Assembly: GCA_033763555.1 (NCBI GenBank)
Contig: JANRKK010000045.1
Location: 2,277-66,276, forward strand
Direction: 5' to 3'
Source of the DNA: Alphaproteobacteria bacterium
Lineage (GTDB): Bacteria; Pseudomonadota; Alphaproteobacteria; UBA9219
DNA length: 64,000 nt
The notes beneath the pieces are model-generated. The model saw only the letters and a program-made list of their open reading frames with translations, did no database searches and was not told the DNA's origin. Below, one piece after another: positions 1,603 through 22,793 of this stretch (positions are counted from its first letter, which is position 1; every line of letters starts with the position of its first letter). The position numbers and the translations under genes are program-made.

Positions 1603-3165
1603 ATGGTCCAGATTTCATTGAAAAACAAAGCGGCTCAAGCCAAGCCGCAGATCCACGAAGATGTGGATAATATGCTCGCGCAAGTTGAGAATCTTGCCCG
1701 CGAAGCGCGTCAGCCTGAAATCACGGAAACCATCAACGAAGCGCCGCGTAGCTTCCCGAATTTTACCCGCCTGCTACAAATTTCGGGTCGTTACCTGATG
1801 ATGAGCGACATTGTCGCCCTGCTGGCTGCTTTTACATGCGGTGGCGTCGGAGCCTGGGCCGTTGATGTCTATCTGTTCAACGAAGGCTTCCAGGAATTGT
1901 TCCATATTATGTCATTGCAGCAATTTGCCATCTTCACAGGCTTGGGCGCAGTTGCGCTGCTGTGGCTGGACACCAAAGGCCATTACCGTCAGCGCCTCCC
2001 TTATTGGGAAGTCATTGGTCATCTGGTTGCCGTGGTCATGCTCGGGTTCCTTGCGGGAGGCTTTATTCAATTCGCTTCCAAGAATGACTCCTCCCGTTTG
2101 TGGATGGGGTTGAGCTGGCTGATGTTTGGCGTGTTTTTGCTGACGGGCCGCACCCTCGTGCGCCGTATGTTGGAGAAACACGGCCTCTGGAAAGTTCCAG
2201 CCGTCATGATCGGCACAGGCCCGACGGCCCAGGCAGCGATGAGTACCCTGAATCGCGAACGCAAGATGGGTTTTGCGCTGGTCAAACAAATTGATGCTTC
2301 GGCTTTGGAAACCTTGTCGAAGCCGCATGCCTGGAAGCATTTGCTGATGACGCATGGTGCATCGCATATTTTCCTCGCGCTGGAAGGCAGTGAAGTCGAA
2401 AAAAATTCAGTGGCGATCAAATCCATGGTTCGCGCGCGCGTCCCCTGCTCCATCATTCCGGCCTGGCTTGGCTTGCCGTCCAGCACGCTGTCGCCGCATC
2501 ACTTCATGATGCATGACGTTGTGCTGCTGCATAACACCAACCGCTTGCAATTGCCCTTGCCGCGCCTGCTCAAGCGCAGCTTCGATATTCTTCTCGCAGG
2601 AACAGCCCTTGTTGTACTGTCGCCTTTGTTTGCTGGCGTTGCTTTGTTGGTGCGTCGTGATGGTGGCCCGGCCTTTTTCAAGCAGGCGCGTGTTGGCCGC
2701 GGCGGACGTCTGTTCAATTGCTATAAGTTCCGCTCTATGCGCATCGATGCCGAGAAATTTCTCGCGCGTTATCTGATTGAAAATCCCGCTGCCGCACAGG
2801 AATGGCGCCAGTTTCAGAAACTGAAAAATGATGTGCGCGTCACGAAGTTTGGCCAATTCATTCGCCGCACCAGCCTCGATGAATTGCCGCAGCTGATCAA
2901 TGTGCTGAAAGGCGAAATGAGCCTTGTAGGTCCGCGTCCCTGTATGCCCGGACAGGAAGATTTCTATGCCGAAGATTTCAGCTTCTATGAATCCGTGCGC
3001 CCGGGCATCACAGGCCCATGGCAGGTCAGCGGTCGCAACAAGCTGACTTTCAAGGAACGCGTCCAGCTGGAATCCTGGTATGCGCGTAACTGGAGTCTGT
3101 GGATGGACGTTGTTATCGTTCTGAAAACAGTCCCAACGTTGCTCAAAAAAGATCAGGCGTTTTAA
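1603..3165 (+). CDS. Undecaprenyl-phosphate hexose-1-phosphate transferase (WbaP/PssA/ExoY-family priming sugar transferase) with an N-terminal multi-TM domain
   Basis: 520 aa. The C-terminal bacterial sugar transferase signature is present ([11 protein letters not shown]...[21 protein letters not shown]), with TM helices in the first 200 aa. Confidence 0.85.
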
Positions 3166-3223: not shown

Positions 3224-3688
3224 ATGCCGCGTCCCTACAAAATATCTGATGAAACCCGTCGCCAAAAATCCGAACAACTGAAACGGCAATGGAAAGATCC
3301 TCAGTTTAAAGAGATAGCTAAAACGACTGCTAGAAACACCATGAAACAGCAATGGGCCAATCCGGAAATCAGAGCTCGGCGAACATCTGCTGCCAGAAAA
3401 CGAATGACACGATTAAATGCTGACCCTCTCTTTAAAGCTAAAGCAAGAGTAGCTGGAGGAAAAATTTTAAAGCGACTAAACGCAGATCCTGTAATGCGTA
3501 GCAGAATAATGGCCGCGTCTCGTGAAGCCATGGTGCGATTGAATGCTGACCCGGCATTTAGAGCCAAAAACGCAGCTGCGATGAGTGAGCGCATGAAAAA
3601 GCTGTGGGACAATCCCGAAAGCCGGGAAGCAATGTTGGAGGCCCGAAGAATTAAAAGAGAGCTACGCTCTAAGCCACCCACTCCGTAA
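3224..3688 (+). CDS. Hypothetical basic protein built of six tandem ~21-22 aa helical repeats (LNADPxF[KR]AK..., WxNPExR...)
   Basis: 154 aa, lacking Cys, with a run of six similar ~21-22 aa segments containing the motifs LNADP and W-x-[DN]-P-[EQ]. GC is visibly lower (~45%) than the neighbours. The 3' end overlaps the convergent GH10 gene by 27 nt. Confidence 0.55.
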   Translation: MPRPYKISDETRRQKSEQLKRQWKDPQFKEIAKTTARNTMKQQWANPEIRARRTSAARKRMTRLNADPLFKAKARVAGGKILKRLNADPVMRSRIMAASREAMVRLNADPAFRAKNAAAMSERMKKLWDNPESREAMLEARRIKRELRSKPPTP

Positions 3689-4810
3689 ACTTTCCCACAA
3701 AGGCCCGCGCTGATAATTTGTATCGAGCGGCAGGCTTCCTTGCGCATCGCCTAGGGCATCTTCCAGCCAGCTGCGGCGGTCGCTCAACCCCCATGTCAGC
3801 AGCGTATTGACGGATCCGCTTTCTTGCACCATGGCGAGGTAGGTCTGCACATAATTTTGCGCGAAGGTGCTTCGTTCATAGCCCTCACCTGGAACACGGC
3901 TAAGATCGAGATCAAGCTCGGTTATATAAATCTCAATCCCCAAACCACGAACTGTTTTCAGGAATTCGGTAAAGTCCCTGCCTCCCAAGGGCAGATGGCA
4001 TCGCAAATGGCTTTGCAGTCCCAGCGCATGAATTGGAACGTTTTTGGTTTTGAGTTTTTTGAGAAGATTCAGAAGAAGTTTTCGTTTGGCATATCCATAG
4101 CCATCACCGCGTTCCAAACCAAAATCATTGTAGACAAGCGTAAGCCCCGGATCGACCTGATGTGCATAGTGGAACACCTGAGAGATGTAATTCGGGCCAA
4201 GTGCTTTGAGCCATAGCGTCTCACGCAAACCATCCTTGCGCGGTGAACGCGGATCGATCGCCTCATTAACGACATCCCAATTGCGGATCATCGGTGAAGT
4301 TTCGGCAACTACACGCTCGATATGTGCGCGCAGAATTTTTTCTGCGGTCTTTTTATTTTTGAGTTCGGGCACAAGCCATGATGGGTTTGCATGATGCCAG
4401 ACCAAAACATGTCCACGCATCGCCAGGCTGTTGGCTTGCGCAAATTGTGCCAGACGATGATAGCCGCTGAAATCAAATTCCGCAGGCGATGGTCGCAACG
4501 CATCCCATTTCAACTCACCCTCGGGAACAAGCAACGCGACTTCCCTCTTCAACGCCTCGGCAAAGCGATGGTCATTGAGCTGGCTGCTTTTAACAGCAGC
4601 ACCATAAAGGCGGCCTTTTTTGCGGGCCAAAGCCCCCAGGCCTGGGCTGCGAAAGCCCGTTTCCGGATAAAGGCTGAGAGATTCGCATCCGGCTAGGCTC
4701 AGGCCTGAAAATCCGAGCAGCGGCAGGCCCAAAAGAGCCCGTAAAAAATCGCGGCGCAAAATATTTTTTGGGGAGAGAAAGCTCGAATGCATGCAAACGG
4801 ATAAAAACAT
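3662..4810 (-). CDS. Glycoside hydrolase family 10 (endo-beta-1,4-xylanase-like) with a twin-arginine (Tat) signal and lipobox
   Basis: The GH10 catalytic motifs WDVVNEA (acid/base) and ITELDLD (nucleophile) are present. The N-terminus carries RRDFLRALLGLPLLGF...LAGC, a Tat motif plus lipobox-like Cys. Confidence 0.8.
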   Translation of the reverse strand: MFLSVCMHSSFLSPKNILRRDFLRALLGLPLLGFSGLSLAGCESLSLYPETGFRSPGLGALARKKGRLYGAAVKSSQLNDHRFAEALKREVALLVPEGELKWDALRPSPAEFDFSGYHRLAQFAQANSLAMRGHVLVWHHANPSWLVPELKNKKTAEKILRAHIERVVAETSPMIRNWDVVNEAIDPRSPRKDGLRETLWLKALGPNYISQVFHYAHQVDPGLTLVYNDFGLERGDGYGYAKRKLLLNLLKKLKTKNVPIHALGLQSHLRCHLPLGGRDFTEFLKTVRGLGIEIYITELDLDLSRVPGEGYERSTFAQNYVQTYLAMVQESGSVNTLLTWGLSDRRSWLEDALGDAQGSLPLDTNYQRGPLWESLRSGWLRA

Positions 4811-5459: not shown

Positions 5460-5706
5460 CCTGACCTAAGTCTTCCTTTGATTTTTACCGATAAGTCAAA
5501 ATATTCAATTAATTTCAATTAGTTGAATAGATATCACATTGTTTTAAAAATACCACATAGGCCTTAAAAGCTTTCCCTGGGCCTCGATTTCCCCCTGTTA
5601 ACTATAAAAATTTGTGGAAAAAATATAGCGGACTCCTTAGAACATGGGGGTCTTGTGAGGGGCTTCGACGGTCTTGGCCGCACGCAAAAAACGTAAGGGG
5701 AACATC

Positions 5707-6285
5707 ATGAAAAAGCTTCTTTTAGTCATTGCACTCGTATTCTCGATTGCCGGAATTTCTCCGGTACACGCAGCCACCTGGACGAACGAAGTTCAGGCAG
5801 CCATCCAAAGCGGCAATTTTGAACAAATCAACGTCATCGGCGCAAAAAATCCTTCGGCCGCTGGCGACATCGCCGTCTATCTGCTGCAGCAGTCTCAGAA
5901 CAAAGCTCTGTCGCAAGATGTGCGCGTGAAGCTGTTTACGGCTGCAACGCCGTTCGCAGGTCAGATTGCCCCGAACGACACGGCCGCTGCAGGCAAAATC
6001 ATCAATGCGATGCTGGCTTTGGCGAACAACCCGGCTTTCCAAAAGACCAATCCGAACGCTGCCGCTGACATCTACGCCAGCGCTCTGAACATGAGCGGTC
6101 AGCCGAACATGATTGTTGGCAACCCCAACCTGCACAACGCCGTTCTGGCTGATGCCGATGATTTCCTCGGCAACGCTCCGGCGGATGCGGACAAGAGATT
6201 GCGTGAACAGGTCAGCTTGGCTTTGTTTGTCGGCGCTCCCCCTCCCCTGGGTCCGCGCGGCATCATCAACCCGAGCTTTGAGTAA
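5707..6285 (+). CDS. Hypothetical secreted protein (Ala/Asn/Pro-rich)
   Basis: Start chosen at MKKLLLVIALVFSIAGISPVHA (signal peptide), preceded by the RBS AAGGGGAA. The ORF-track start at 5674 is probably too far upstream. Confidence 0.55.
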   Translation: MKKLLLVIALVFSIAGISPVHAATWTNEVQAAIQSGNFEQINVIGAKNPSAAGDIAVYLLQQSQNKALSQDVRVKLFTAATPFAGQIAPNDTAAAGKIINAMLALANNPAFQKTNPNAAADIYASALNMSGQPNMIVGNPNLHNAVLADADDFLGNAPADADKRLREQVSLALFVGAPPPLGPRGIINPSFE

Positions 6286-6326: not shown

Positions 6327-6357
6327 CCCCGGCGGGTCCTCCGCCGGGGAGTCTTTT
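6327..6357 (+). terminator. Rho-independent terminator (CCCCGGCGG-GTCCT-CCGCCGGGG followed by a T-run)
   Basis: A GC-rich hairpin plus TCTTTTG immediately follows the 6285 stop. Confidence 0.6.
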
Positions 6358-6377
6358 GAGAATAACCGGAGGGTTGA

Positions 6378-7685
6378 ATGAAGAGAGTGTTTCTTGCTGT
6401 GGTCATTCTGACTGTCAGCTTTGTGGTGGCAAAAACCGCGCAAGCCGATGCCGGATTGCTTGGCCAAAACGTGCAAGTGCTCGATGCGTCGCTGAACATG
6501 CGCCGCTCAACCACCGAACAAATCGACCCCATCCGCGGCCAATCGGTTCTAATGCGCCCGCGTCCGGATTTCGATCCTGTGCCAATTCCCGTTGGCTCGT
6601 TCCAGCTGTTCCCGGCCATCAACGTCGGCACCTACTACGACAGCAACATCTTCGCCTTGCAGAACAATGAAGAGAGAGACCTTGTATGGAAAATCAACCC
6701 GACAATGTCTTTCCTGTCCAACTGGGGTCGTCATGCGCTCGGATTTACGGGGCTGGCGGATATTGATTACTACACCGTCGATGACAAACAGAATTACGCA
6801 GGCGGCGCCATGCAGGCAGAAGGTCGCTATGACATCTCCGAACAAATGTGGCTGTCAGGCGTTGGCGGCTATCAGCGTGTAACAGAACTCAAGGGTTCTC
6901 CTGCCGACCAAGGTAATGCCGCTGGCCCCAGTCAATATGATCTTTACAGTGCTGGCGCGCAGTTTTATCGCGGCGTTGGTCTTCTGAAGACCACGGTCAA
7001 TTACAACTTTGGCTACTACGAATACAGTCCCGTTGAAATCATCGGTGGTGGCACAGCAAGCCAAAGTGCGCGTGACCGTACCCAGAACAAGGTCGATGGT
7101 GAAGTCCGTTACGATGTTACGGAAAACCTCAAGCCCTTCATCCGCGGTGCTTATAACTGGCGCGACTACACGACAACCAGCTCTCACTCATCGAATGGTT
7201 ATAATATCGATGTTGGTGCTGCGATGGATTTCGGTGGCATCACAACAGCCGAAGCCTATATCGGTTACATGTCGCAGGACTATTACAACTTCATGAGCGG
7301 CGTGGTGGATGCGATCGATTTCGGCGGCAACCTCCTCTGGAACGTAACGCCTCTCACTTCGGTTGAATTCCGTGCCCGCCGCAGCATTGAAGAAACGACG
7401 GTTGGTTCAGCTTCGTCCTTTCTGGCTTCGGAAGGCCAGATGATCCTGAGTCATGAGCTGAGACGCGACATCGTTCTCCAGTCCCGCGTGATCTATGACG
7501 GGTTGGATTACAACGAAATCGAACGCCATGATGATCTGTATGATGTCGGCGTCGGCGCGCGTTACTACATGAACCGTAACTTTTATGGCGACTTCACTTA
7601 TGACTTCCAGCGCCGCACGACGGATGCTGCTGGTCTGAACTATGACCGCCATATCGCGTTCCTACGGTTTGGCGCGCAATACTAA
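6378..7685 (+). CDS. Outer-membrane beta-barrel protein, probable partner of the downstream short OPX export protein
   Basis: 435 aa with signal peptide MKRVFLAVVILTVSFVVAKTAQA. It is Tyr/Gly/Asn-rich with alternating beta-strand patterns and a C-terminal aromatic end (...LRFGAQY). It sits 14 nt upstream of the Wza-like gene. Confidence 0.7.
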   Translation: MKRVFLAVVILTVSFVVAKTAQADAGLLGQNVQVLDASLNMRRSTTEQIDPIRGQSVLMRPRPDFDPVPIPVGSFQLFPAINVGTYYDSNIFALQNNEERDLVWKINPTMSFLSNWGRHALGFTGLADIDYYTVDDKQNYAGGAMQAEGRYDISEQMWLSGVGGYQRVTELKGSPADQGNAAGPSQYDLYSAGAQFYRGVGLLKTTVNYNFGYYEYSPVEIIGGGTASQSARDRTQNKVDGEVRYDVTENLKPFIRGAYNWRDYTTTSSHSSNGYNIDVGAAMDFGGITTAEAYIGYMSQDYYNFMSGVVDAIDFGGNLLWNVTPLTSVEFRARRSIEETTVGSASSFLASEGQMILSHELRRDIVLQSRVIYDGLDYNEIERHDDLYDVGVGARYYMNRNFYGDFTYDFQRRTTDAAGLNYDRHIAFLRFGAQY

Positions 7686-7698
7686 CTTTAACTGACAG

Positions 7699-8277
7699 GT
7701 GTCCATGCCGTTCAGGGGTCTTCTGTTCGCTGCTGTTGTGTGCGCTGGCTTAGGTTCTGCGCCTATGCTGTCTGTGGCAGAAACGGCAACGCCATCCCCT
7801 GCTCCAGCTCCCCAGAAAATCAGCGATTATGTGCTGGGTGTTGGCGATAAGCTGAAGATTACCGTCTTCGGTGAGGACAACCTCTCGGGTGACTTTGAGA
7901 TTTCTTCGACAGGCGTGATTTCCATGTCCCTGATCGGAGAAGTGAAAGCTTCGGGTTTGACTATTACGCAGGTGCAGAACACGATTACCCGCAAGCTGTC
8001 CGAGGGCTACATGAAGAACCCGCATGTCAGCCTTCAGGTCTTGAATTACAGGCCCTTTTTTATCGTGGGTGAAGTGATGAAGCCCGGCAGTTACAATTAT
8101 GTAAATGGCATGACGGTGATCAATGCTGTCGCGCTGGCCGGGGGTTATACATATAGAGCCGACAAAGACGATATTAAGGTAAAGCATGGAGGGCCCGACG
8201 CCAAGGAAGAGCCTGCAAAAGAAGGCACGGCTATTCTTCCCGGCGATGTTGTTAACGTGCCTGAAAGATTTTTCTGA
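7699..8277 (+). CDS. Polysaccharide export protein, Wza/GumB/ExoF-like OPX (short form, periplasmic Poly_export domain only)
   Basis: 192 aa with a signal peptide and a Poly_export-like core (YVLGVGDKLKITVFGEDNLSG...ITQVQNTITRKLSEGYMKNPHVSLQVLNYRPFFIVGEV). It is too short to contain a C-terminal OM-spanning helix domain. Confidence 0.8.
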   Translation: MSMPFRGLLFAAVVCAGLGSAPMLSVAETATPSPAPAPQKISDYVLGVGDKLKITVFGEDNLSGDFEISSTGVISMSLIGEVKASGLTITQVQNTITRKLSEGYMKNPHVSLQVLNYRPFFIVGEVMKPGSYNYVNGMTVINAVALAGGYTYRADKDDIKVKHGGPDAKEEPAKEGTAILPGDVVNVPERFF

Positions 8278-8327: not shown

Positions 8328-10472
8328 ATGAATCAAGAACAATTGATGATGATGACGGACGTCCGCGAAATCTGGCTTTTCGTGCGCCGTAACGCCAAGC
8401 TTATCCTGTTGATCGCCGTCAGCGCTTCTATCCTGGCCTTCATATCGACCTTTATCATCCCGCCTCGCTACACAGGCGAAGCGGTGATCATGCTCGACCC
8501 GCGCAAAACGAACCTGACCAACGTTCAGTCAGTTCTCTCCAACCTTCCTGCTGAAAACGCAGCCGTCCGAAGCGAAATCGACATCATTGAATCGCGGGCC
8601 GTCATCAACCGCGTCATTGAAGAGCTCGACCTGCTCAACAATGCCGATTTCAACCCCAGCCTGTCCGGTACGCGTTGGTTCCTCCGCCTTTTCGCCAGCC
8701 GCAAGCCCGAAAGCAAGCAGCAACAGATCAGCGAAGACCGTAGCGCTATTGCCAACAAGCTGACCAAGCGCCTGACAGTCGAGAATGACGGCCGTTCCTA
8801 CAGCATCGTCCTCAAATACCGTGATCGCGACCCCGCCCAGGCTGCCAAGATTGCCAATTCCTTTGCTGATCAATATCTCGTTGATCAGCTGGAAGTTAAG
8901 TACGACATCACCCAGCGCGCCAACGCCTGGCTGTCCAAGCGCCTTTCCGATCTACGCGATAAGGTTGGCGTCGCCGAGCGAGCGATTGAAGACTACAAGA
9001 CATCCAACAATCTGGTCGATGTCGGCGATGAAACCATCACGCAACAGCAGCTAAGCGCCATCGATGAACATTTGCTGGAAGCCCGCGCCGAAAGGTCACA
9101 GGCCGAAGCGCGCTACACCAGCGTTAAAAATATGGGCGAACATGCCCTTGAAACATCGTCCGTCATCATCGCTTCCCCGTTGATTCAACAATTAAAGCAG
9201 CAGGAAGCTGAAGTCCGCCGGAAAGAGGCTGACCTCGCCACCCGCTACGGCGACCGCCATCCGATGATCATCGATACGCGTAATGAGCTGCGCAGTATCC
9301 GCGACAAAATTGCCGAAGAAATCAAAAAAATCGTCGCGGGTCTTAAGAATGATTACGACATCGCCTCCAGCAAGACGGACAGCCTGGAGCGTGAACTGAC
9401 CCGCCTGAAGGCCGAAACGGGCGAAGGTAACAAGGCCATGGTTGTCCTGCGACAAATGCAGCGCGAAGCCAGCTCCAACCGCAGCCTGTATGAAGGTTTT
9501 TTGAACCGCTTTAAGCAGATCGCCGAGCAGCAGGATCTGCAGATTGCAGATTCCCGTATCATTGCCCGCGCAGAACCGCCGATTAAACCACACTTCCCCA
9601 AAAAGTGGATATTCACAGGTGTCGGCGCGGCGGCAGGCCTGGTTCTGGGCTTCCTCTTGACGCTTCTGCTGGAATATCTCGACCGTGGCATGCGTTCGCT
9701 GACGGCGGCTGAAAAGCTTTATGGCATTTCAGGATTGGGCATCGTTCCCCTTGCTGAAACATCCGAAGGCCAACTGCCAACCGATTATCTGCTGGAAAAA
9801 CCGCTATCGATCTATGCCGAATCCATCCGGTCTATCCGTGCTGCTATCCACTTCTCAAACGTCGACCGTCCCCCAAAAACTGTTGTCGTTACCAGTTCCT
9901 TCCCCAACGAAGGGAAGACTGTGTTTTCATCCTCCCTGGCCCGCTTGTTGGCAAAATCAGGGCAGAAAACCATCCTGATCGACGCTGATATGCGCCGCCC
10001 GCGCATCCATAGCATTCTGGGTCTCGACAAAAATAAACCTGATCTGGCCTCAGTTCTGGCTGGCAAGGCTACACTTGCCCAAGCCCTCCAGAAGGACGCC
10101 AGCGGTGCGGATGTCATCATCGCCCGGGCCCGCACCATGAATCCGCAGGATTTGCTGAATTCCCACCAGATGGAAAAGCTGCTCAATACGCTGCGCGAAA
10201 ACTATGATATGGTGATTATCGATACGCCTCCGGTCATGGCCGTGGCTGACGCCGCGCTCATCGGCCAGAAGGCGGATACGACGGTTTATGTTGCCCGTTG
10301 GTCGGCCACACCCAAGGAAGTCATCGGTGAAGGTCTGAAGCAGTTGGCAAAGTTCAATATCCGCCTTGCGGGCATGGTGCTGACGCAGGTCGATCTCCAA
10401 GACAAGAAGCAATACGGTTACGACGACTACAGCTACTATTATGGCCAGTACAAGAGCTATTACACGAATTAA
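8328..10472 (+). CDS. Polysaccharide co-polymerase PCP-2a / tyrosine autokinase (Wzc/ExoP-like chain-length determinant)
   Basis: 714 aa with an N-terminal TM, a Wzz-like periplasmic coiled coil and a second TM. The C-terminal P-loop ATPase domain carries SSFPNEGKTVFSSSLA and DTPPV, and there is a Tyr-rich tail YGYDDYSYYYGQYKSYYTN. Confidence 0.85.
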   Translation: MNQEQLMMMTDVREIWLFVRRNAKLILLIAVSASILAFISTFIIPPRYTGEAVIMLDPRKTNLTNVQSVLSNLPAENAAVRSEIDIIESRAVINRVIEELDLLNNADFNPSLSGTRWFLRLFASRKPESKQQQISEDRSAIANKLTKRLTVENDGRSYSIVLKYRDRDPAQAAKIANSFADQYLVDQLEVKYDITQRANAWLSKRLSDLRDKVGVAERAIEDYKTSNNLVDVGDETITQQQLSAIDEHLLEARAERSQAEARYTSVKNMGEHALETSSVIIASPLIQQLKQQEAEVRRKEADLATRYGDRHPMIIDTRNELRSIRDKIAEEIKKIVAGLKNDYDIASSKTDSLERELTRLKAETGEGNKAMVVLRQMQREASSNRSLYEGFLNRFKQIAEQQDLQIADSRIIARAEPPIKPHFPKKWIFTGVGAAAGLVLGFLLTLLLEYLDRGMRSLTAAEKLYGISGLGIVPLAETSEGQLPTDYLLEKPLSIYAESIRSIRAAIHFSNVDRPPKTVVVTSSFPNEGKTVFSSSLARLLAKSGQKTILIDADMRRPRIHSILGLDKNKPDLASVLAGKATLAQALQKDASGADVIIARARTMNPQDLLNSHQMEKLLNTLRENYDMVIIDTPPVMAVADAALIGQKADTTVYVARWSATPKEVIGEGLKQLAKFNIRLAGMVLTQVDLQDKKQYGYDDYSYYYGQYKSYYTN

Positions 10473-11043
10473 ATCCGTTAAGAACGGATTTGCCGCGCTG
10501 TACGGCGCGCTGGTGCTCTTTGCCCTGATCAATCTGTTCTGGACGCTGACCCCGGCCGAAGACAGCAACGCCAAAATCGATGAAAAGATGCAGACGGTGG
10601 ACAGCCTCCCCGTCCGTGAGCGGCTTGAGCTTCTGACCCAGTTGCGTCAGGACCAGGAAAGCAACCTGACGCGCAGACCGTCAGAGCCCTATGGCTGGGC
10701 CCGCCTCTCTCGCCTGCGTTCCATGACCCAGGGTGATGCAAAGGCTGCCTTTGCGGCCCTGCAGATGTCCGATCTTGTCAGCCCCTATGAGGCTGCCCAA
10801 ATGCCGGAGCGCGCCATCATGTGGTACAAGCTGCGCGGCGTTCAAACGCCGGAGCAGCGCGCCTATCAGGATATTCTCTGGAAAAAAGCCTACGGGTTTC
10901 AACGCAAGGCGACCTGGACGATTGCCGTCGATAACAATCTGATCAAGGAAGTTGGCGAATCCTTGAAGAAGACCGAGCCGTCCCTGTACGAAGAATGGAA
11001 GACATGGGACGCCATGCGCAGCCAGGGCAAAACGACGCCCTAG
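10441..11043 (+). CDS. Hypothetical membrane-anchored protein
   Basis: 200 aa with a single N-terminal TM (FAALYGALVLFALINLFWTL). Its only ATG start overlaps the Wzc-like 3' end by 32 nt out of frame. The 3' end abuts the convergent ligase-like gene. Confidence 0.4.
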   Translation: MASTRAITRIKSVKNGFAALYGALVLFALINLFWTLTPAEDSNAKIDEKMQTVDSLPVRERLELLTQLRQDQESNLTRRPSEPYGWARLSRLRSMTQGDAKAAFAALQMSDLVSPYEAAQMPERAIMWYKLRGVQTPEQRAYQDILWKKAYGFQRKATWTIAVDNNLIKEVGESLKKTEPSLYEEWKTWDAMRSQGKTTP

Positions 11044-12434
11044 CCTTTCGTGTTCGCAATGGTCTGACGGTCGGATTGCGTCCAGCTCTGCGCCAGCCCC
11101 GTTCCTAACAACGCTGCCCATACCATCGCTACACCGGGTATCTGCAGGCTGAAATCCACGCAGGCATGCAGCAGAACCATGCATGAGGTGGTCAGGGCCA
11201 GAACGGAGAAAATACCATTCTGGCGGCGGCGCATGACGCCATGGCCCAGAACGCTTAGCAGCAGCCCTATGGCCACCCACAGCAGCAACCCAAAGGGAAC
11301 GCCCAGATCCAGAAGGGATTCCAGAACATCGCTGTGCGCGCGTTTAAAGCCCATCAGCATATTATGCTGATAAAGGCGGTATTCCGCCTCAAACCCGTTC
11401 AGCCCATAGCCCAGCCAGGGATTATCAAGCAGAGCCCGCCAGACCATTTTGTAGACTTTGAGCCTGTCCAGCGATGAGCTGTCATTGAACAGCACCGAGA
11501 AGCGCTCAGACAGCTGCATGGCGATGACCGAAGCCACAATCAGAAGGCCCAGAGCCACAAGGCCCATGATGACCATCCGCTTCCAGGCTTTGAGATAGAT
11601 TTGATAAAAGAAAAAATACGCGCCAACGCCGAAGACAGCCAGCAACAGCCCCGCGCGCGAATGGCTGAATATGATGCAGAGAAAAACCATGAACAGCAAA
11701 AAGACCTGAAAGAAGCCTTCCTTCACCAGCCATTCACGGAGCAAGGCAATCCGCTTGTGTGGTTTTTGCCTTTGAACCTTCTGCTGCCATGAACGGAAGA
11801 ACAGCGACGCGCCACAGACCAGAACCATACCCGCATAAAGGGCGAAGTGGTTACGATTGACGAAAGTCGCCGTCAAATCCCCCTGATAAGCCCATTTATC
11901 AAACCAGAGAATTTTATCCATGCCCGTGATGTAGACGAGCAGGCCATAGGCGCAAATGACAGTACCGGATAGCCACAGGGTTTTGATCAGGCTTTGCGCC
12001 CTGCCCGCATCTTGCCCCAGAATGTAGCCCAGCAGCCCTGCGGCGATGTAGGTCATCAGGCCCGTAATGCCTTGCAGACTATCTTCAGGCGTAACGGCTA
12101 TCGCGCCATGGATAGAGGTGCCCAGAACGGTCGCTGCTTCATGCCAGAGCGGATGCACCCAGGAGCCGGGAACAAAGGGCATGGTCTGAAAGAAGGCCCA
12201 TAGCAGGACAACCCCAAAAAGCCCGAGAGCCCAGCGTATGCGCGGAAAGAAATGCACCTGCGACCATACGCCCGGGCTGGAAAGTAACAACAGGCAGCTT
12301 GCCGCTAGTCCGGCCTGCGCCAGCCCCATGGGTATCGGCCGATTACCGCCAAGCCCGATGGGCAACAACGCTACACTCAGGGCAAAGCACCAGAAGGCGT
12401 AGTCGGTAAAATTCAGGCGGTTTGTATGAGCCAT
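11040..12434 (-). CDS. O-antigen ligase / Wzy_C-family polytopic membrane protein (EPS polymerase or ligase, ExoQ-like)
   Basis: 464 aa with about 10-12 TM helices and a Wzy_C-like motif region (FSHSRAGLLLAVFGVGAYFFF). Confidence 0.65.
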   Translation of the reverse strand: MAHTNRLNFTDYAFWCFALSVALLPIGLGGNRPIPMGLAQAGLAASCLLLLSSPGVWSQVHFFPRIRWALGLFGVVLLWAFFQTMPFVPGSWVHPLWHEAATVLGTSIHGAIAVTPEDSLQGITGLMTYIAAGLLGYILGQDAGRAQSLIKTLWLSGTVICAYGLLVYITGMDKILWFDKWAYQGDLTATFVNRNHFALYAGMVLVCGASLFFRSWQQKVQRQKPHKRIALLREWLVKEGFFQVFLLFMVFLCIIFSHSRAGLLLAVFGVGAYFFFYQIYLKAWKRMVIMGLVALGLLIVASVIAMQLSERFSVLFNDSSSLDRLKVYKMVWRALLDNPWLGYGLNGFEAEYRLYQHNMLMGFKRAHSDVLESLLDLGVPFGLLLWVAIGLLLSVLGHGVMRRRQNGIFSVLALTTSCMVLLHACVDFSLQIPGVAMVWAALLGTGLAQSWTQSDRQTIANTKG

Positions 12435-13141
12435 TGTTTCGTCCCTTCAAGCGCCAAGGCTGTGAGGCAGCCCGTTGCATAAGCGCCTGTATCTATACTG
12501 ATGCGATTCGGGCAAAACTCAGCCTCAAATGTAATGGTATGGCCATGTACGACAACCTTGCCGAAGGAATCCTTGTGGTTCAGGAATTCATAACGAATCC
12601 AGACAAGATCCTGCTCATTTTGTGATTCGAGTGCGACGCCCGGCCGCACCCCTGCATGGCAGAAAAAATAATCGCCGTAGGTGGCTGAAAGCTCCAAATT
12701 TTCCAGAAAATCCACATGCGCTGGCGGAACCTTGGAAGCCATTTCCTTCAGAACTTCGGTGGGATTTTCGGTCAACTTGGCAGGCGACAGGCCATAGCTG
12801 AGAAGCGTCTCCCTGCCTCCGAATTGGAACCAGTCGCCAAGCAATCCAGGATCGGAATCGCGCAACAGCTGTCGCATGACTTGTTCGTGATTACCCATAA
12901 GGAAAATGGGTGGTTCTTTTTCCTTCGCGCGCCAGTCGATCAGATAGTCGATGATCTGGCAGCTATGGAGGCCACGGTCGATATAATCGCCAAGAAAAAT
13001 CTTTTTAACAGGGCCTTTTGCTGTCTTTGCATCCTCATCGATTTTGGCAAGCAGCTGTTTCAATAAATCCAGACGGCCATGCACATCGCCTACGGCGTAA
13101 AGCCGTATCCCTTCGGGAAGGCTCGGAGATGATGTGGTCAT
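12413..13141 (-). CDS. PPP-family metallophosphoesterase (bacterial Ser/Thr protein phosphatase, PrpA/ApaH-like)
   Basis: The motifs GDVHGR, GDYIDRG, GNHE and HGHT are present. The 3' end overlaps the start of the ligase-like gene by 22 nt. Confidence 0.8.
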   Translation of the reverse strand: MTTSSPSLPEGIRLYAVGDVHGRLDLLKQLLAKIDEDAKTAKGPVKKIFLGDYIDRGLHSCQIIDYLIDWRAKEKEPPIFLMGNHEQVMRQLLRDSDPGLLGDWFQFGGRETLLSYGLSPAKLTENPTEVLKEMASKVPPAHVDFLENLELSATYGDYFFCHAGVRPGVALESQNEQDLVWIRYEFLNHKDSFGKVVVHGHTITFEAEFCPNRISIDTGAYATGCLTALALEGTKQWLIQTA

Positions 13142-13236: not shown

Positions 13237-14793
13237 ATGGCTTTTTCCCGTTCTGTTGCAACTGTTGGGTTCTTTACGCTTCTGTCGCGCCTGCTTGGCT
13301 TTGTGCGCGATCTGGTAACCGCCAATCTGCTGGGCGTAGGCCCTGTCGCCGATGCCTATATCGTCGCTCAGCGGCTCCCCAACATGTTCCGCGCCCTATT
13401 CGCTGAAGGAGCCGTGGATTCCACCTTTGTGCCGATTTACACCCGCAAAAAGCGGCAAGAAGCTCCGGCCGAGGTCGCCGTCTTCGTCAATCACATTTTC
13501 ACGATACTGGTTCTGGTTCTTTTACCCCTGACCATTCTTGCTATCCTGCTCATGCCGTGGGTTATCCGTTTGATCGCACCCGGCTTTGCCGATGATCCCC
13601 AGCGTTTTAATCTGGCTGTCACCTATGGCAGCATTACCTTCGGTTATCTTCTGCTGGTTTCCGTTACGGCTCTCCAAGGCGGCTTGTTGAATGCCAATCG
13701 GCATTTTGCGCCCTTTGCCATTGCTCCCGTCATTCTGAACGCCATCATGATTGCCGGACTTCTCTATGCGAAATGGGAAGGTCTGGAAGCAGGGCTGATT
13801 GGCTCATGGGCTTTGATCGCGGGCGGCGTGGCGCAATGCGCTTGGCTTTATGTCTATTGCCGCCGTCAGGGTCTTTCTTTGGGTTTTGCCTGGCCCCGTT
13901 GGACAAGCGATGTCCGGCGCTTTTTCAAACTTGTCGGGCCGGGTGTGATCGGCATCAGCGCTGATCAAATCCACCTGCTGGTTTCGACCATTTTGGCTTC
14001 AACGCTGCCTTCAGGTGCCATTGCGGCGCTTTATTATGCCGACCGAGTTAATCAACTTCCTTTTGGTGTTATCGGCGGTGCAATTGCAACAACTCTGCTG
14101 CCCGTCTTGACTCATCACATCGCCGCCCGCGAAACCAAGGAAACGACCCATCATTTCAGCCGCGCGATTGAGATCGCCCTCCTCGTCAGCCTGCCTGTGG
14201 GCCTGGTTCTGCTTCTGGCGGCCGAACCGCTTATCCGCATTTTGTTCCAGCATGGTGCGTTCGATGCCGAAAATACCCGCTCTACGGCACAGGCCCTTGC
14301 CAGCTACGCGCTGGCTATTCCGGCCTATATGATGGTGCGCATTCTGAATATGCGTTTCTTCGCACATGAAGATACGAAAACGCCTGTGCTTGTGACCTTT
14401 ATTGCCGTTCTCGCGAATGGCGGTGCAGCATGGCTGCTCAAGCCTTCACTTGGCCATGTCGGCATTGCTTTGGCCTTCACCTTCGCCCTTTGGGTTAATG
14501 CCGTCTGTTTAAGCTTTCTTTTGTGGCAACGAGGTCAGTTTCGCGTTGACCGGACTTTAAAACGGCACCTACCGCGCCTTGCCGGAGCCGCAGCCATTAT
14601 GGGAGGTGTGTTGATGGTGAGCGTAAGGCTGAATGAAAGTCTGAGCGAAGTTCTTGTGTTGCCAGACTTTATCTATGATCTGGTCGTTTTGGGCATCCGA
14701 CTTGGCGTAAGCGGCATGGCTTACCTTGCAGTCCTTGATATGCTGGGTGTCGCGCGCCTGTCGGATATCAAGAAGCTTTTGAAACGCGCTTGA
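13237..14793 (+). CDS. murJ: MurJ/MviN-family (MVF) lipid-linked oligosaccharide flippase
   Basis: 518 aa with a conserved MurJ N-terminus (LLSRLLGFVRDLVTANLLGVGPVADAYIVAQRLPNMFRALFAEGA) and about 14 TM helices. Confidence 0.85.
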   Translation: MAFSRSVATVGFFTLLSRLLGFVRDLVTANLLGVGPVADAYIVAQRLPNMFRALFAEGAVDSTFVPIYTRKKRQEAPAEVAVFVNHIFTILVLVLLPLTILAILLMPWVIRLIAPGFADDPQRFNLAVTYGSITFGYLLLVSVTALQGGLLNANRHFAPFAIAPVILNAIMIAGLLYAKWEGLEAGLIGSWALIAGGVAQCAWLYVYCRRQGLSLGFAWPRWTSDVRRFFKLVGPGVIGISADQIHLLVSTILASTLPSGAIAALYYADRVNQLPFGVIGGAIATTLLPVLTHHIAARETKETTHHFSRAIEIALLVSLPVGLVLLLAAEPLIRILFQHGAFDAENTRSTAQALASYALAIPAYMMVRILNMRFFAHEDTKTPVLVTFIAVLANGGAAWLLKPSLGHVGIALAFTFALWVNAVCLSFLLWQRGQFRVDRTLKRHLPRLAGAAAIMGGVLMVSVRLNESLSEVLVLPDFIYDLVVLGIRLGVSGMAYLAVLDMLGVARLSDIKKLLKRA

Positions 14794-19164: not shown

Positions 19165-20145
19165 GTGAGCAAGCCTATGGCCACTTCCAAAAAACGTGAC
19201 ATCGCACAGGATATCGCCAAGGCGATCGGCATTCTCGCTGTGGTCTACGCCCATGTTCTGTGGGGCCTGGTCAGTTCCTCTATTTTTGCAGATGGCAATC
19301 CGTTGCATTTCATCGATATGGGACTGCAAATCTACACGATGCCGCTTTTCTTCCTGCTGGCCGGGTATAACGCCCCATCCAGCCTCAAGCGTTCTACGCC
19401 TGCTGAATTTATCCGCAAACGCGCCAGTATGCTGATACCTGTTTATCTGATCTGGTCGGTGGTACAGGGCGGCATGAAATACGCGCTGAGCGGACAGGTG
19501 AATGATCCTGTAACGCTTCAGGATCTTTTAGCTATTCCCTACAAACCCATTGGCCAGTTTTGGTTTCTCTATGCTCTCTTGATTTACCATATCGCTACGG
19601 CGTTGCTTTACCGTCGGCCATGGGTTCTTGCATCTCTTGCCATTGCAGCCTTTCTGGCCAATCCATGGCTGGAGGATTTCCCCCGGGATTATTGTTACAG
19701 CGGTATTTTTTATGTTCTCGGATTCCTTCTGGCAAACAAAGATCTTCCGTCCATCAAGGCAAAACACATCGCCCCTGCCCTTGGGGTTGCGGTTATTGTG
19801 TATGCCTGCGGATTGGCCATGAATTGGAGTTATGGCCTGGACTCGCGCAATCTCTTGCTGTTGCCTGCAACATTATCCGGCATTGGGCTGGTTATGTTTT
19901 TATCTCAAAAATTGTCGGCATCGTCTGCAGGACCTGCTCTGGCCTATGTCGGCCGCGCATCACTCGCCATCTATGTGCTGCATGTCATTTGCTTTGCCGG
20001 ATGGCGCGCTTTTATACTGAAGCTTGGTGTGACGGAGGCCTATGTGCATCTCGTAACAGGTACGCTGGTTGGCCTCGGCGTACCTCTACTACTTTATAGT
20101 GTTCTAGGGCGCTTTAAGCTTCGTCGTTACGCCTATCTTGGCTGA
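19165..20145 (+). CDS. Acyltransferase family 3 membrane protein
   Basis: 326 aa, polytopic, with N-terminal AKAIGILAVVYAHVLWG. It is 45 nt downstream of fabD. Confidence 0.75.
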   Translation: MSKPMATSKKRDIAQDIAKAIGILAVVYAHVLWGLVSSSIFADGNPLHFIDMGLQIYTMPLFFLLAGYNAPSSLKRSTPAEFIRKRASMLIPVYLIWSVVQGGMKYALSGQVNDPVTLQDLLAIPYKPIGQFWFLYALLIYHIATALLYRRPWVLASLAIAAFLANPWLEDFPRDYCYSGIFYVLGFLLANKDLPSIKAKHIAPALGVAVIVYACGLAMNWSYGLDSRNLLLLPATLSGIGLVMFLSQKLSASSAGPALAYVGRASLAIYVLHVICFAGWRAFILKLGVTEAYVHLVTGTLVGLGVPLLLYSVLGRFKLRRYAYLG

Positions 20146-21654: not shown

Positions 21655-22793
21655 GGTGAATCAGTATGCCCGAGGCCCAAAGCTTCTGCCATGGCTTTAT
21701 CAGAATTTCCCCGTGGGTCAATCAAGCCGAAGCGGCCACGATATTCCCAAAGAGCCCAGGGAATGCCCGCTTTTTCAAGCGCCTCACGCACATCCCGCAA
21801 CCAGTTATAACGGCTCTGATCATCAATGTGGGGGCGATAGACACCGAACTCGGTGCAAATGACCCGAACCTTTGAACGCCGCCGCCATTCCTCTACGCGG
21901 CCAATTATTTCTATAATTGTCGCCCGGTTCCAGCCGCGCATGACATATTCTTGAATCTTGGCATCATCCATATCGAAATCGAACTTTGTATCGACGGGAT
22001 AGACAATGGGCGTACGGCTGCGCCATTCCGGCAACCACTCAACGCCATGATGCGTTACAATCATGGGGTCATAAAAATGAAAATCATAAAGAAGATTTTT
22101 GTCCTTATAGGGTTTCATAAGAATAAGTTCCCACCAGCCGCTATGCGGGCCTGTGGTCACGACAAAAGTATTCTTGGGAAAGTCTTTACGCAGATTGTTA
22201 ACCAGCTGTTCCTGCATCTGCCACCAGAGAAAACTTTCGACTGGTGGCTCGTTATACAAGCCCAGAAAAATCCGCTGGGACGGAAAATCCTTGATCACAG
22301 GTTGCAGGTTTTTCCATATTCCCTCGACTTGCGCCATGGTCTCGCGCGGCGTTTCCTTGAGCCTGCTTTCTCCAGCTAGGCCTGGATGCAAATCGATAAT
22401 GACACTCAAACCTTGATTTAAAAGCTCGACAAGGTCACAGCGCAGCTCGGCAAGCCGATCTTTCTGCTCATCTTCATCACTTAAAGTGAGCCAAACAGGA
22501 TGAAGCGGCAACCGGACATAATCGAACCCCTGCCCTCGCAATTTCGGTATATCTTCGCTCTTATAAGATGTGTCCCGGCGATCTTCCCACCAGCGCGATA
22601 AATTCACGCCGCGCTTGAGCGTAACAGACCGTTCTCCACGAGGCGCTTTACTGGCATCGTAGATACATGTATCGGCTGCCATGGCCTTCGATAAAGGCAG
22701 GATGGCGAGCAAAAGAAAAAGTAGGAAAAGGCGGCGCATGCCATGCCACATACACCATAATCGACTTAAATTCACGGATGTTGGCGCGCTCAC
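21651..22793 (-). CDS. Glycoside hydrolase family 5 (endoglucanase-like), secreted
   Basis: The GH5 motifs LGLYNEPP (acid/base) and ICTEFGV (nucleophile) are present, with an N-terminal signal peptide ([22 protein letters not shown]). Confidence 0.75.

What the first reader, a model, noticed from the sequence alone, without database searches (positions are those of the whole stretch)
6378..8277. Bipartite outer-membrane export module: 435-aa beta-barrel OMP immediately upstream of a short (192 aa) Wza-like OPX protein
The OPX protein has the periplasmic Poly_export core but is far too short to contain the C-terminal amphipathic helix that forms the Wza OM pore. The adjacent gene encodes a large Tyr/Gly-rich beta-barrel with a signal peptide and a C-terminal aromatic residue. 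This arrangement matches the recently proposed composite OPX/beta-barrel translocon type, reported for Myxococcus EPS/BPS/spore-coat pathways, rather than classical Wza. In an alphaproteobacterial Wzc-kinase locus it would be an interesting example.
Basis: partly seen in the sequence, partly recalled or inferred. Interest (0 to 1): 0.55.

Follow-up and report, generated by a model that had tools for sequence, protein, structure and literature searches.

The report
Two-part outer-membrane polysaccharide export channel
Two adjacent genes in an uncultured alphaproteobacterium encode a short periplasmic polysaccharide-export protein and an 18-stranded outer-membrane barrel; together they match an export channel already shown to work in Myxococcus, so this is a clear but fairly ordinary new example.

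Summary
6378-7685 encodes a 435-aa secreted protein that matches Pfam PF10082 end to end. Its high-confidence model (pLDDT 87.6) is an 18-stranded beta-barrel with no plug, and AlgE is the top structural match. 7699-8277 encodes a 190-192-aa protein with only a Poly_export (D1) and one SLBB (D2) domain. It has no Wza_C helix and no D3.

Its best solved relative is the Myxococcus Class-3 OPX WzaB (PDB 9n9a), aligned to the last residue. It ends in ...PERFF. The terminal Phe-Phe is the motif shown in 2026 to dock WzaB onto its porin WzpB, and 116 of the 120 best homologues keep it.

The short length is the family norm (median 193 aa), so this is not a pseudogene. Barrel, OPX and Wzc lie in this order in 22 of 43 related genome loci. 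The surrounding locus is a Wzy-type EPS cluster.

However, the system is already described: it is widespread in Gram-negatives and genetically shown in an alphaproteobacterium (Sphingomonas prmC/prmD).

Two differences from the Myxococcus model are mildly interesting. The OPX has no lipobox, although acylation is essential for WzaB, and the twin-arginine contact for the PCP is K-N here. Verdict: new member of a known kind, low to moderate interest.

The parts
1603..3165 (+). Initiating phosphoglycosyl transferase (Bac_transf with CoA_binding_3 N-terminal part). This is the first step of the same EPS pathway.
   Evidence: Pfam PF02397, E 1.5e-65
6327..6349 (+). Terminator-like hairpin (10 pairs, 9 of them G-C) followed by TCTTTT. 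It separates the upstream gene from the barrel gene, so a new transcription unit probably starts at the barrel.
   Evidence: sequence
6378..7685 (+). Outer-membrane 18-stranded beta-barrel (PF10082/BBP2_2), the proposed outer-membrane conduit. It has an SPI signal peptide (residues 1-23), a conserved N-terminal segment of about 45 residues, and then strands from residue 75 to 434. A GGAGGG ribosome-binding site lies at 6368-6373.
7699..8277 (+). Class-3 (D1D2) OPX protein of 192 aa, or 190 aa if translation starts at the ATG at 7705. It has an SPI-type signal peptide without a lipobox, a Pro/Ala-rich linker, a Poly_export D1 (41-114) and an SLBB D2 (120 to the end).
8260..8274 (+). Codons for the C-terminal P-E-R-F-F tail. 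It corresponds to WzaB Phe203-Phe204, the porin-docking motif.
   Evidence: Aligned to VPESFF of 9n9a. FF in 116 of 120 homologues and YF in 4. E189 and F192 are invariant; R190 and F191 are nearly invariant.
8328..10472 (+). Wzc-type PCP-2a co-polymerase and tyrosine autokinase (Wzz + GNVR + P-loop kinase, with a Tyr-rich C-terminal tail). It is the inner-membrane partner of the OPX.
   Evidence: TIGR01005 390 bits; TIGR01007 146 bits, above its cut-off
10441..11043 (+). Conserved 200-aa protein with one N-terminal transmembrane helix. It overlaps the end of wzc by 32 nt. Function unknown; probably co-translated with the export genes.
11040..12434 (-). Wzy-type polymerase / O-antigen-ligase-like membrane protein
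   Evidence: Pfam Wzy_C, E 5.9e-19; syntenic in related loci

Best explanation
The two genes encode a composite outer-membrane translocon of a Wzx/Wzy-dependent exopolysaccharide pathway. The 435-aa protein is inserted into the outer membrane as an 18-stranded barrel and forms the pore. The 190-192-aa OPX is exported by Sec and stays in the periplasm. There it is proposed to assemble into a ring (an octamer in the Myxococcus model) beneath the barrel. Its D2 domain and C-terminal Phe-Phe tail dock on the periplasmic rim of the barrel. Its D1 (Poly_export) tip contacts the periplasmic domain of the Wzc co-polymerase encoded next in the operon. Polymer made by the Wzy polymerase then passes through Wzc, the OPX ring and the barrel to the cell surface.

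Shown here by computation: the domain content, the 18-strand fold, the missing OM-spanning segment, the conserved FF tail, the conserved gene order and the surrounding pathway genes.

Inferred by analogy with WzaB/WzpB/WzcB and EpsY/EpsX: the physical contacts, the ring stoichiometry and the requirement of both proteins for export.
For: OPX architecture:
- It contains Poly_export plus one SLBB and nothing else. There is no Wza_C match even at E<=10.
- The model shows no C-terminal helix.
- The best solved relative is 9n9a, Class-3 OPX WzaB of M. xanthus. By sequence, E 4.3e-20, aligned from residue 33 to the last residue. By fold, Foldseek E 2.4e-10.
- Relative to Wza, the beta1-beta2 loop that carries the gating tyrosine ring is shortened by 11 residues (alignment). 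This is a stated Class-3 feature (PMC12819527).

Docking motif:
- The protein ends in VPERFF, against WzaB VPESFF. The terminal FF is kept in 116 of 120 homologues and is YF in the other 4.
- Deleting Ser-Phe-Phe from WzaB abolishes WzpB binding and secretion (PMC12819527).

Barrel:
- PF10082 matches over its full length.
- AF2 model: pLDDT 87.6, pTM 0.82, 18 long antiparallel strands with alternating long and short loops, and no helical plug.

Synteny:
- Of 43 genome loci holding a relative of the barrel (23-64% identity), 22 have a short OPX gene directly downstream on the same strand. 29 have one within 6 kb.
- All of these OPX proteins end in [EQ]R[FY]F, and wzc usually follows.

Operon and pathway:
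- A strong terminator-like hairpin lies before the barrel gene and none lies inside barrel-OPX-wzc.
- The locus also has a PGT, a Wzy-like gene, a MurJ-like flippase, glycosyltransferases, acyltransferases and glycoside hydrolases.
- There is no other OPX or PF10082 gene in the 64 kb.

Precedent: in Sphingomonas LM7, deletion of prmC (barrel) or of prmD (OPX) each gives an EPS-negative phenotype (PMC10635127).
Against: - No experiment exists for this organism, which is an uncultured MAG.
- I could not run a multimer co-fold, so the OPX-barrel contact is inferred.
- Sequence homology of the PF10082 barrel to Myxococcus WzpX/S/B or Vibrio VpsM could not be tested. JGI names the OPX homologues VpsN but calls the barrel homologues 'hypothetical protein'.
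- Two features that are essential in WzaB are absent. There is no lipobox or acylated Cys. The Arg106-Arg107 contact for the PCP is Lys-Asn here.
- Some PF10082 barrels have no OPX neighbour, for example on S. meliloti pSymB and in 14 of the 43 loci.
- The D2 part of the OPX model is of only moderate confidence.
Confidence: 0.85

Rival explanations
1. The 192-aa OPX is the remnant of a full-length Wza that was truncated by a frameshift or a premature stop, and the barrel is an unrelated neighbour.
For: Its length is about half that of E. coli Wza (359-379 aa). It aligns only to Wza D1-D2, residues 62-207.
Against: - The 120 best homologues are 154-262 aa long, median 193.
- Conservation runs to the very last residue: E189 and F192 are invariant, and R190 and F191 nearly so.
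- Only 50 nt separate the stop codon from wzc.
- The protein aligns end to end with the natural 204-aa WzaB.
Confidence: 0.01
2. The short OPX crosses the outer membrane by itself, as P. aeruginosa PslD does. PslD lacks a C-terminal helix, but eight copies each contribute one C-terminal strand to a parallel beta-barrel. On this reading the adjacent barrel would have another role.
For: PslD (256 aa) looked like a pore-less OPX until cryo-EM showed an OM segment at residues 221-254 (PMC13434223). Short OPX proteins can therefore mislead.
Against: - In this protein the SLBB/D2 fold runs to about residue 186, and only about 6 residues (PERFF) follow. In PslD about 34 residues follow the last periplasmic domain.
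- The whole chain aligns with WzaB, which is soluble and monomeric when not acylated.
- PslD has no adjacent barrel gene, whereas here the barrel gene is conserved next to the OPX gene.
Confidence: 0.04
3. The barrel is not the export pore but an accessory protein. It could be a Wzi-like lectin that anchors or organises the polymer at the surface, or a general or sugar-specific porin. The polymer would then leave through an unidentified channel.
Against: - Wzi has an N-terminal helical plug and works beside a full-length, pore-forming Wza. Here the model shows no plug helix, and no other OM-spanning export component is encoded in the 64 kb.
- The gene order barrel-OPX-wzc is conserved, with 13-nt spacing here.
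- The docking motif FF is conserved on the OPX.
- The barrel prmC is required for EPS in Sphingomonas.
Confidence: 0.08

Closest known systems
Myxococcus xanthus WzaB / WzpB / WzcB (BPS pathway), with the paralogous EpsY(WzaX)/EpsX(WzpX) and ExoA(WzaS)/ExoB(WzpS) systems: the composite Class-3 (D1D2) OPX / 18-stranded barrel translocon (PMC9601211, PMC9603273, PMC12819527; PDB 9n9a)
   Same: - D1D2-only OPX of about 190-220 aa with no OM-spanning segment.
- Shortened beta1-beta2 loop.
- C-terminal ...PE-x-FF tail.
- Adjacent gene for an SPI-secreted 18-stranded barrel whose closest solved fold is AlgE.
- Adjacent PCP-2a tyrosine kinase, within a Wzy-type pathway.
   Different: - OPX identity to WzaB is only about 31% over the aligned region.
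- The OPX here has an SPI signal peptide and no lipobox, whereas 47 of 48 myxobacterial OPX are lipoproteins and WzaB needs acylation to oligomerise and function.
- WzaB Arg106-Arg107 is Lys-Asn here.
- The barrel belongs to Pfam PF10082. Its sequence relation to the Wzp proteins could not be tested, and Wzp homologues were reported to be confined to myxobacteria (PMC9603273).
- In the closest clade the barrel carries a conserved extra N-terminal segment.
Sphingomonas sp. LM7 promonan locus, prmC (OM beta-barrel) and prmD (SLBB/Wza-family OPX) (PMC10635127)
   Same: It is alphaproteobacterial. The barrel gene lies directly upstream of the OPX gene in a Wzy-dependent EPS cluster that also has a WecG-family glycosyltransferase, an acyltransferase and two glycoside hydrolases. 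Both genes are individually required for EPS.
   Different: In the prm locus the PCP is split (Wzz/EpsF-type protein plus a separate CapB-type kinase) and an AAA+ ATPase lies between. Here a single fused Wzc follows the OPX directly. No sequence comparison was possible.
Vibrio cholerae VpsN / VpsM
   Same: It is a short OPX coupled with an OM barrel, recovered by the same genomic screen (PMC9601211). JGI labels several close homologues of this OPX 'VpsN'.
   Different: The barrel homologues here are not labelled VpsM by the same source. The pair is gammaproteobacterial. No direct comparison was possible.
Escherichia coli Wza (Class-1 OPX; PDB 2j58)
   Same: The Poly_export D1 and first SLBB D2 are homologous (E about 1e-11). 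It has the same partner type (Wzc) and the same pathway logic.
   Different: Wza has D3, the Wza_C amphipathic helix that forms the OM pore, the tyrosine-ring gating loop and a lipid anchor. All four are absent here.
Pseudomonas aeruginosa PslD (PMC13434223)
   Same: It is a short OPX without a C-terminal helix that forms a trans-envelope conduit with its PCP.
   Different: PslD has a C-terminal OM segment of about 34 residues that builds an 8-stranded parallel barrel, is a lipoprotein, and has no partner barrel gene. This protein ends 6 residues after D2.
AlgE / PgaA / BcsC / PelB outer-membrane porins of synthase-dependent pathways
   Different: Sequence identity is only 6-14% and there is no detectable sequence homology. 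Those porins work with TPR or lipoprotein partners, not with an OPX ring.
Methylobacillus-type EpsE/EpsL and PEP-CTERM-associated outer-membrane proteins (NCBIfam TIGR03028, TIGR03014, TIGR03016)
   Same: They are weak relatives of both proteins (OPX 91 bits, barrel 33 bits). This shows that curators already link PF10082-like barrels to EPS export loci.
   Different: All scores are far below the family cut-offs (275, 262.65 and 90.85 bits). No exosortase or PEP-CTERM gene was seen among the ORFs scanned.

Membership tests
Class-3 / D1D2 OPX (WzaB, EpsY type) | Poly_export (PES, D1) domain present | tested here: met
   PF02563, E 2.9e-23, residues 41-114
Class-3 / D1D2 OPX (WzaB, EpsY type) | Only SLBB domain(s) after D1; no Wza_C, no GfcC module, no C-terminal alpha-helix; length <=280 aa | tested here: met
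   There is one SLBB and no other Pfam match at E<=10. The length is 192 aa. The model ends in strands and a 6-residue tail.
Class-3 / D1D2 OPX (WzaB, EpsY type) | Truncated beta1-beta2 loop lacking the Wza tyrosine-ring gate | tested here: met
   The alignment to Wza shows 3+8 residues missing in this loop. The feature is described in PMC12819527.
Class-3 / D1D2 OPX (WzaB, EpsY type) | C-terminal Phe-Phe that docks on the partner porin | tested here: met
   The protein ends in PERFF, aligned to WzaB PESFF. FF is kept in 116 of 120 homologues. The binding itself was not testable.
Class-3 / D1D2 OPX (WzaB, EpsY type) | N-terminal SPII signal and acylated Cys (needed for WzaB oligomerisation; not universal, as about 50% of Class 3 are SPII and about 30% SPI) | tested here: not met
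   The only Cys is preceded by A-V-V, which is not a lipobox, and an S-V-A|E cleavage site follows. Most of the 120 homologues have AxA-type signals and only about 8 have a convincing lipobox. This was a manual and regex reading; SignalP was not available.
Class-3 / D1D2 OPX (WzaB, EpsY type) | Arg106-Arg107 at the D1 tip contacting the PCP | tested here: not met
   The aligned residues are Lys106-Asn107. Position 106 is K/R in 110 of 111 homologues. Position 107 is D/N/S in 104 of 111. OPX-PCP contacts are reported to be pair-specific (PMC13434223).
Class-3 / D1D2 OPX (WzaB, EpsY type) | Gene coupled (within 5 genes) to an OM beta-barrel gene and a polysaccharide pathway gene | tested here: met
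   The barrel gene is 13 nt upstream and wzc is 50 nt downstream. The arrangement is conserved in 22 of 43 loci.
OPX-partnered 18-stranded barrel translocon (EpsX/WzpX, WzpB, ExoB, VpsM) | SPI signal peptide and an 18-stranded antiparallel OM barrel (at least 16 strands by the Schwabe criterion) | tested here: met
   AF2 model with pLDDT 87.6 and 18 long strands between residues 75 and 434. The signal peptide ends in AQA|D.
OPX-partnered 18-stranded barrel translocon (EpsX/WzpX, WzpB, ExoB, VpsM) | Closest solved folds are synthase-pathway porins (AlgE, PgaA) | tested here: met
OPX-partnered 18-stranded barrel translocon (EpsX/WzpX, WzpB, ExoB, VpsM) | Sequence homology to the EpsX/ExoB/MXAN_1916 or VpsM (K20920) profiles | not testable with these tools
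There is no PDB entry and the afdb50 library was unavailable. JGI calls the barrel homologues 'hypothetical protein'.
OPX-partnered 18-stranded barrel translocon (EpsX/WzpX, WzpB, ExoB, VpsM) | Direct binding to, and mutual stabilisation with, the OPX; required for secretion | not testable with these tools
   This needs experiments or a multimer co-fold.
Pfam PF10082 (BBP2_2, putative beta-barrel porin 2) | Score above the gathering threshold over the full model | tested here: met
   279.3 bits against 23.7, profile positions 1-378 of 378. All 116 homologues carry PF10082.
Class-1 OPX (E. coli Wza) | C-terminal amphipathic helix (Wza_C/D4) forming the OM pore, a D3 domain and a lipoprotein signal | tested here: not met
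   There is no Wza_C match and only one SLBB, the protein is 192 aa long, and there is no lipobox.
PEP-CTERM/exosortase-associated EpsL (TIGR03014) and EpsE (TIGR03028) | Score above the NCBIfam equivalog cut-off | tested here: not met
   33 bits against 275, and 91 bits against 262.65.

The most novel reading that the evidence does not exclude
This alphaproteobacterial clade may be a mechanistically distinct sub-type of the composite translocon. Its OPX is a soluble, non-acylated periplasmic protein. Ring assembly under the outer membrane would therefore not use a lipid anchor, although acylation is essential for WzaB. Instead the ring would be templated by protein contacts: the invariant PERFF tail, and possibly the clade-specific conserved N-terminal segment of the PF10082 barrel or the Wzc tip. 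This would show that the 'lipidation-dependent oligomerisation' step of the 2026 model is not general.
Probability: 0.3. Interest if true: 0.45.

Novelty: new member of a known kind. Interest (0 to 1): 0.25.

Why it matters
This locus adds a clean, compact example of the third type of outer-membrane polysaccharide exit route: the operon order is barrel, OPX, Wzc. It comes from a poorly studied group of Alphaproteobacteria.

It shows that the C-terminal Phe-Phe docking motif, so far demonstrated in one Myxococcus protein, is almost invariant in a large and distant clade. That supports the generality of the OPX-porin contact.

It also ties the otherwise uncharacterised Pfam family PF10082 to this role. 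I found no open-access paper that mentions PF10082.

The missing lipid anchor marks a point where the current model, built on lipidated WzaB, may not transfer to other systems. About 30% of Class-3 OPX proteins are already known to be SPI-type, so this question is worth testing but is not surprising.

Tried and rejected
- Pseudogene hypothesis: rejected on homologue lengths, conservation of the terminal residues and the 50-nt gap to wzc.
- PslD-like self-insertion: rejected because only about 6 residues follow D2.
- Does the barrel's conserved N-terminal extension (about residues 27-57) compensate for the missing lipid anchor? The loci give no clean correlation. SPI-type OPX also occur with barrels that lack the extension (L014, L016, L019, L022, L041), and L012 has an extension-like segment with a possible lipobox OPX. 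The idea is kept only as speculation.
- Is 'AETGEGNK' (Wzc 360-367) equivalent to the WzcB LGEG motif? The segment is only loosely conserved in the closest relatives, and WzcB was not available to align. Left open.
- The search for related loci with the 116-sequence alignment failed because no stretch was conserved enough. A 41-sequence alignment worked.
- The Foldseek afdb50 library, which might have named WzpX or VpsM models, was not available.
- A literature search for PF10082, DUF2320 and BBP2_2 returned nothing relevant.
- tblastn of the barrel against plasmids gave 13 weak hits, including Indioceanicola, Azospirillum, Sphingomonas and S. meliloti pSymB. The two regions I inspected had no OPX nearby: one is cut by the record end, and the S. 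meliloti one sits in a non-EPS context.
- A fused-chain co-fold of barrel plus OPX was considered.
Full report
**1. Observation**

The ORF list shows two + strand ORFs exactly as reported. One runs 6378-7685 (435 aa, ATG start) and the other 7699-8277 (192 aa, GTG start). They are 13 nt apart. A 714-aa ORF follows 50 nt later at 8328-10472.

The 435-aa product matches Pfam PF10082 (BBP2_2, 'putative beta-barrel porin 2') over the whole model: positions 1-378 of 378, E 5.8e-83, 279 bits against a cut-off of 23.7. It begins with a typical signal peptidase I signal (MKRVFLAVVILTVSFVVAKTAQA|D). The mature part is 10.2% Gly and 7.5% Tyr. It ends in FGAQY.

The 192-aa product has a Poly_export domain (41-114, E 2.9e-23) and one SLBB domain (120-166). 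Nothing else matches, even at E<=10. The 714-aa product is a fused Wzc-type co-polymerase and tyrosine kinase with a Tyr-rich tail.

There is one minor correction. An AGGTG lies just before the ATG at 7705, so the true product may be 190 aa. The public record of this MAG ('Alphaproteobacteria bacterium', contig of 79,858 bp) calls a 170-aa product from Met23, which lacks the signal peptide. That is almost certainly a start-site error, because the homologues all carry signal peptides.

**2. The short OPX is not a pseudogene**

A database search found 2,261 relatives. The best 120 are 154-262 aa long, with a median of 193. In an alignment of 111 of them, conservation runs to the last residue: E189 and F192 are invariant, and R190 and F191 are nearly so. 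There is no room downstream for lost domains. A profile built from these homologues finds no second OPX in the 64 kb, and a barrel profile finds no second barrel.

**3. What the OPX is**

Among all solved structures, the best sequence match is 9n9a (E 4.3e-20), aligned from residue 33 to the C-terminus. Foldseek with the AF2 model confirms this hit as the 'Class-3 OPX WzaB from Myxococcus xanthus' (E 2.4e-10, 31% identity).

E. coli Wza matches only through its D1-D2 (residues 62-207). In that alignment the window protein lacks 11 residues of the beta1-beta2 loop, which in Wza carries the gating tyrosine ring. The AF2 model has a confident D1 and a weaker D2, with mean pLDDT 78.6. It ends in short strands and a 6-residue tail, with no C-terminal helix.

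The protein ends in VPERFF, against VPESFF in WzaB. Mellouk et al. (Nat Commun 2026, PMC12819527) showed that the terminal Ser-Phe-Phe of WzaB is required for binding to the porin WzpB and for secretion in vivo. In the 120 best homologues the last two residues are FF in 116 and YF in 4.

**4. What the barrel is**

All 116 relatives found carry PF10082. They are 303-575 aa long, with a median of 439. The AF2 model, built with these as the alignment, is confident (pLDDT 87.6, pTM 0.82). It shows 18 long antiparallel strands between residues 75 and 434. Longer loops alternate with 3-5-residue turns, and there is no helical plug.

**5. Genomic coupling**

A scan of one genome per species with a 41-sequence barrel alignment returned 43 loci. 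Most are alphaproteobacterial MAGs. Cultured Kordiimonas marina, Virgifigura deserti and several Sphingomonadales are also present.

I extracted the ORFs and searched them with the window proteins:
- 22 loci have a short OPX gene directly downstream of the barrel on the same strand.
- 29 have an OPX gene within 6 kb.
- Every one of these OPX products ends in [EQ]R[FY]F.
- wzc usually follows, and a Wzy-like gene often lies beyond it.

Fourteen loci show no OPX within the DNA held. Several of these are cut by contig ends, and in the Sphingomonadales the barrel sits next to wzc instead. A PF10082 barrel on S. meliloti pSymB has no EPS neighbours. So the family is not exclusively OPX-coupled.

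In the window, a strong terminator-like hairpin (6327-6349) precedes the barrel gene. None lies within barrel-OPX-wzc. The three genes, plus the overlapping 200-aa ORF at 10441-11043, probably form one operon.

The surrounding 1.6-23.7 kb region holds the following genes:
- a WcaJ-type phosphoglycosyl transferase
- a GH10 hydrolase
- a Wzy_C protein
- a MurJ-like flippase
- WecG-family and GT2 glycosyltransferases
- two Acyl_transf_3 O-acyltransferases
- a GH5 hydrolase
- a sugar epimerase/dehydratase

This is the content of a Wzx/Wzy-dependent EPS locus. The rest of the window is housekeeping.

**6. Mechanism**

The best-supported reading is the composite translocon. The barrel forms the outer-membrane pore. 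A ring of the D1D2 OPX sits beneath it, docked by the FF tails. The D1 tip engages the extended periplasmic domain of Wzc. The polymer passes through this continuous conduit.

The fold, the missing OM segment, the motif and the synteny are shown here by computation. The contacts, the stoichiometry and the requirement of both proteins for export are inferred from three studies:
- EpsY and EpsX stabilise each other and pull down together (PMC9601211).
- WzaB binds WzpB and WzcB, and the crystal structure is solved (PMC12819527).
- In Sphingomonas, prmC and prmD are each required for EPS (PMC10635127).

**7. Rivals**

- The pseudogene reading is refuted (section 2).
- A PslD-like mode deserved a check. 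PslD also lacks a C-terminal helix, yet cryo-EM in 2026 showed that its C-terminal segment of about 34 residues builds a parallel beta-barrel in the outer membrane. The window protein has only about 6 residues after D2 and aligns end to end with soluble WzaB, so this mode is very unlikely here.
- A Wzi-like or nutrient-porin role for the barrel cannot be excluded computationally. It would leave the pathway with no outer-membrane exit. It also fits poorly with the missing plug helix, the tight conserved gene order and the conserved docking motif.

**8. Differences from the model system**

(a) Lipid anchor. 47 of 48 myxobacterial D1D2 OPX are lipoproteins. Non-acylated WzaB is monomeric and non-functional. 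The window OPX has no lipobox: its only Cys is preceded by A-V-V, and an SVA|E site follows. Most of its 120 homologues have plain AxA-type signals, and only about 8 have a convincing lipobox. More distant syntenic pairs include both types. Saidi et al. already noted that about 30% of Class-3 OPX proteins are SPI-type. The fact is therefore known, but how such proteins assemble is not.

(b) PCP contact. WzaB Arg106-Arg107 aligns with Lys106-Asn107. In the clade the loop is G-Y-[ML]-[KR]-[DN]-P, so it is conserved but is not a twin arginine. This fits the report that OPX-PCP contacts are pair-specific.

(c) Barrel family. The barrel belongs to PF10082. I could not test whether this is the same sequence family as WzpX/S/B or VpsM. 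JGI labels OPX homologues 'VpsN' but labels barrel homologues 'hypothetical'. Saidi et al. found Wzp homologues only in myxobacteria. No paper in the searchable library mentions PF10082.

(d) N-terminal segment. The closest clade has a strongly conserved segment before the barrel proper (about residues 27-57...RRSTTEQFDPIRGQSV...). It is predicted with low confidence.

**9. Novelty and verdict**

The kind of system is known. It was proposed in 2022, confirmed biochemically in 2026, reported as widespread (453 couples in 10 phyla) and shown genetically in an alphaproteobacterium. This locus is a new, well-formed member.

Its modest added value has three parts: the near-invariance of the FF tail in a distant clade, the link between PF10082 and this role, and the absence of lipidation. 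Interest is 0.25.

Noticed in passing
window 5674-6285 (+): A 203-aa secreted protein (signal peptide ...SPVHA|A, Ala/Asn-rich, no Pfam or NCBIfam match) lies directly upstream of the barrel gene, separated from it by the terminator-like hairpin. A homologue sits in the same position in 9 of the 12 closest loci (L002-L004, L006-L008, L010-L012). Its function is unknown.
   Followed up: partly
window 10441-11043 (+): A 200-aa ORF overlaps the last 32 nt of wzc. It has one N-terminal transmembrane helix and no family match. It is conserved directly after wzc in L001, L002, L003, L005 and L011. It could be an unrecognised accessory component of this export operon.
   Followed up: partly
window 7699-7767: The public annotation of this MAG starts the OPX at Met23 (170 aa). 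This removes the signal peptide, so the protein would be mis-scored as cytoplasmic by any automated survey.
   Followed up: yes
OPX homologues P0118-P0236; window residues 28-40: Between the signal peptide and D1, the OPX homologues carry a Pro/Ala/Ser-rich linker whose length varies greatly (about 5 to 90 residues), even though most have no lipid anchor to tether. Its purpose is unclear.
   Followed up: no
window 3662-4810 (-) and 21651-22793 (-): A GH10 and a GH5 glycoside hydrolase lie inside the EPS cluster. This recalls PslG in the Psl pathway and the two glycosylhydrolases of the Sphingomonas prm locus. They may trim or release the polymer.
   Followed up: no
window 13237-14793 (+) and 20104-21654 (-): The only flippase-like gene in the cluster scores as MurJ (381 bits) rather than as a Polysacc_synt-type Wzx. 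A 516-aa ORF at 20104-21654 has no Pfam match at all. Which protein flips the repeat unit is unresolved.
   Followed up: no
window 12413-13141 (-): A Metallophos (calcineurin-like phosphoesterase) gene lies next to the Wzy-like gene. No low-molecular-weight PTP (Wzb) was seen among the ORFs scanned, so the phosphatase partner of the Wzc kinase is not identified.
   Followed up: no
L045 (S. meliloti pSymB, 6749-8185) and L044 (Indioceanicola profundi): PF10082 barrels also occur without any OPX or Wzc gene within 7 kb. Part of the family therefore presumably has another role, or works with distant partners.
   Followed up: partly
L021 3427-7170 (+): In this Rhodospirillaceae MAG the ORF holding the barrel is 1,247 aa when read from the first possible start codon. 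It could be a long N-terminal fusion or just an artefact of taking the longest ORF. Its OPX has a clear lipobox (VTGC).
   Followed up: no
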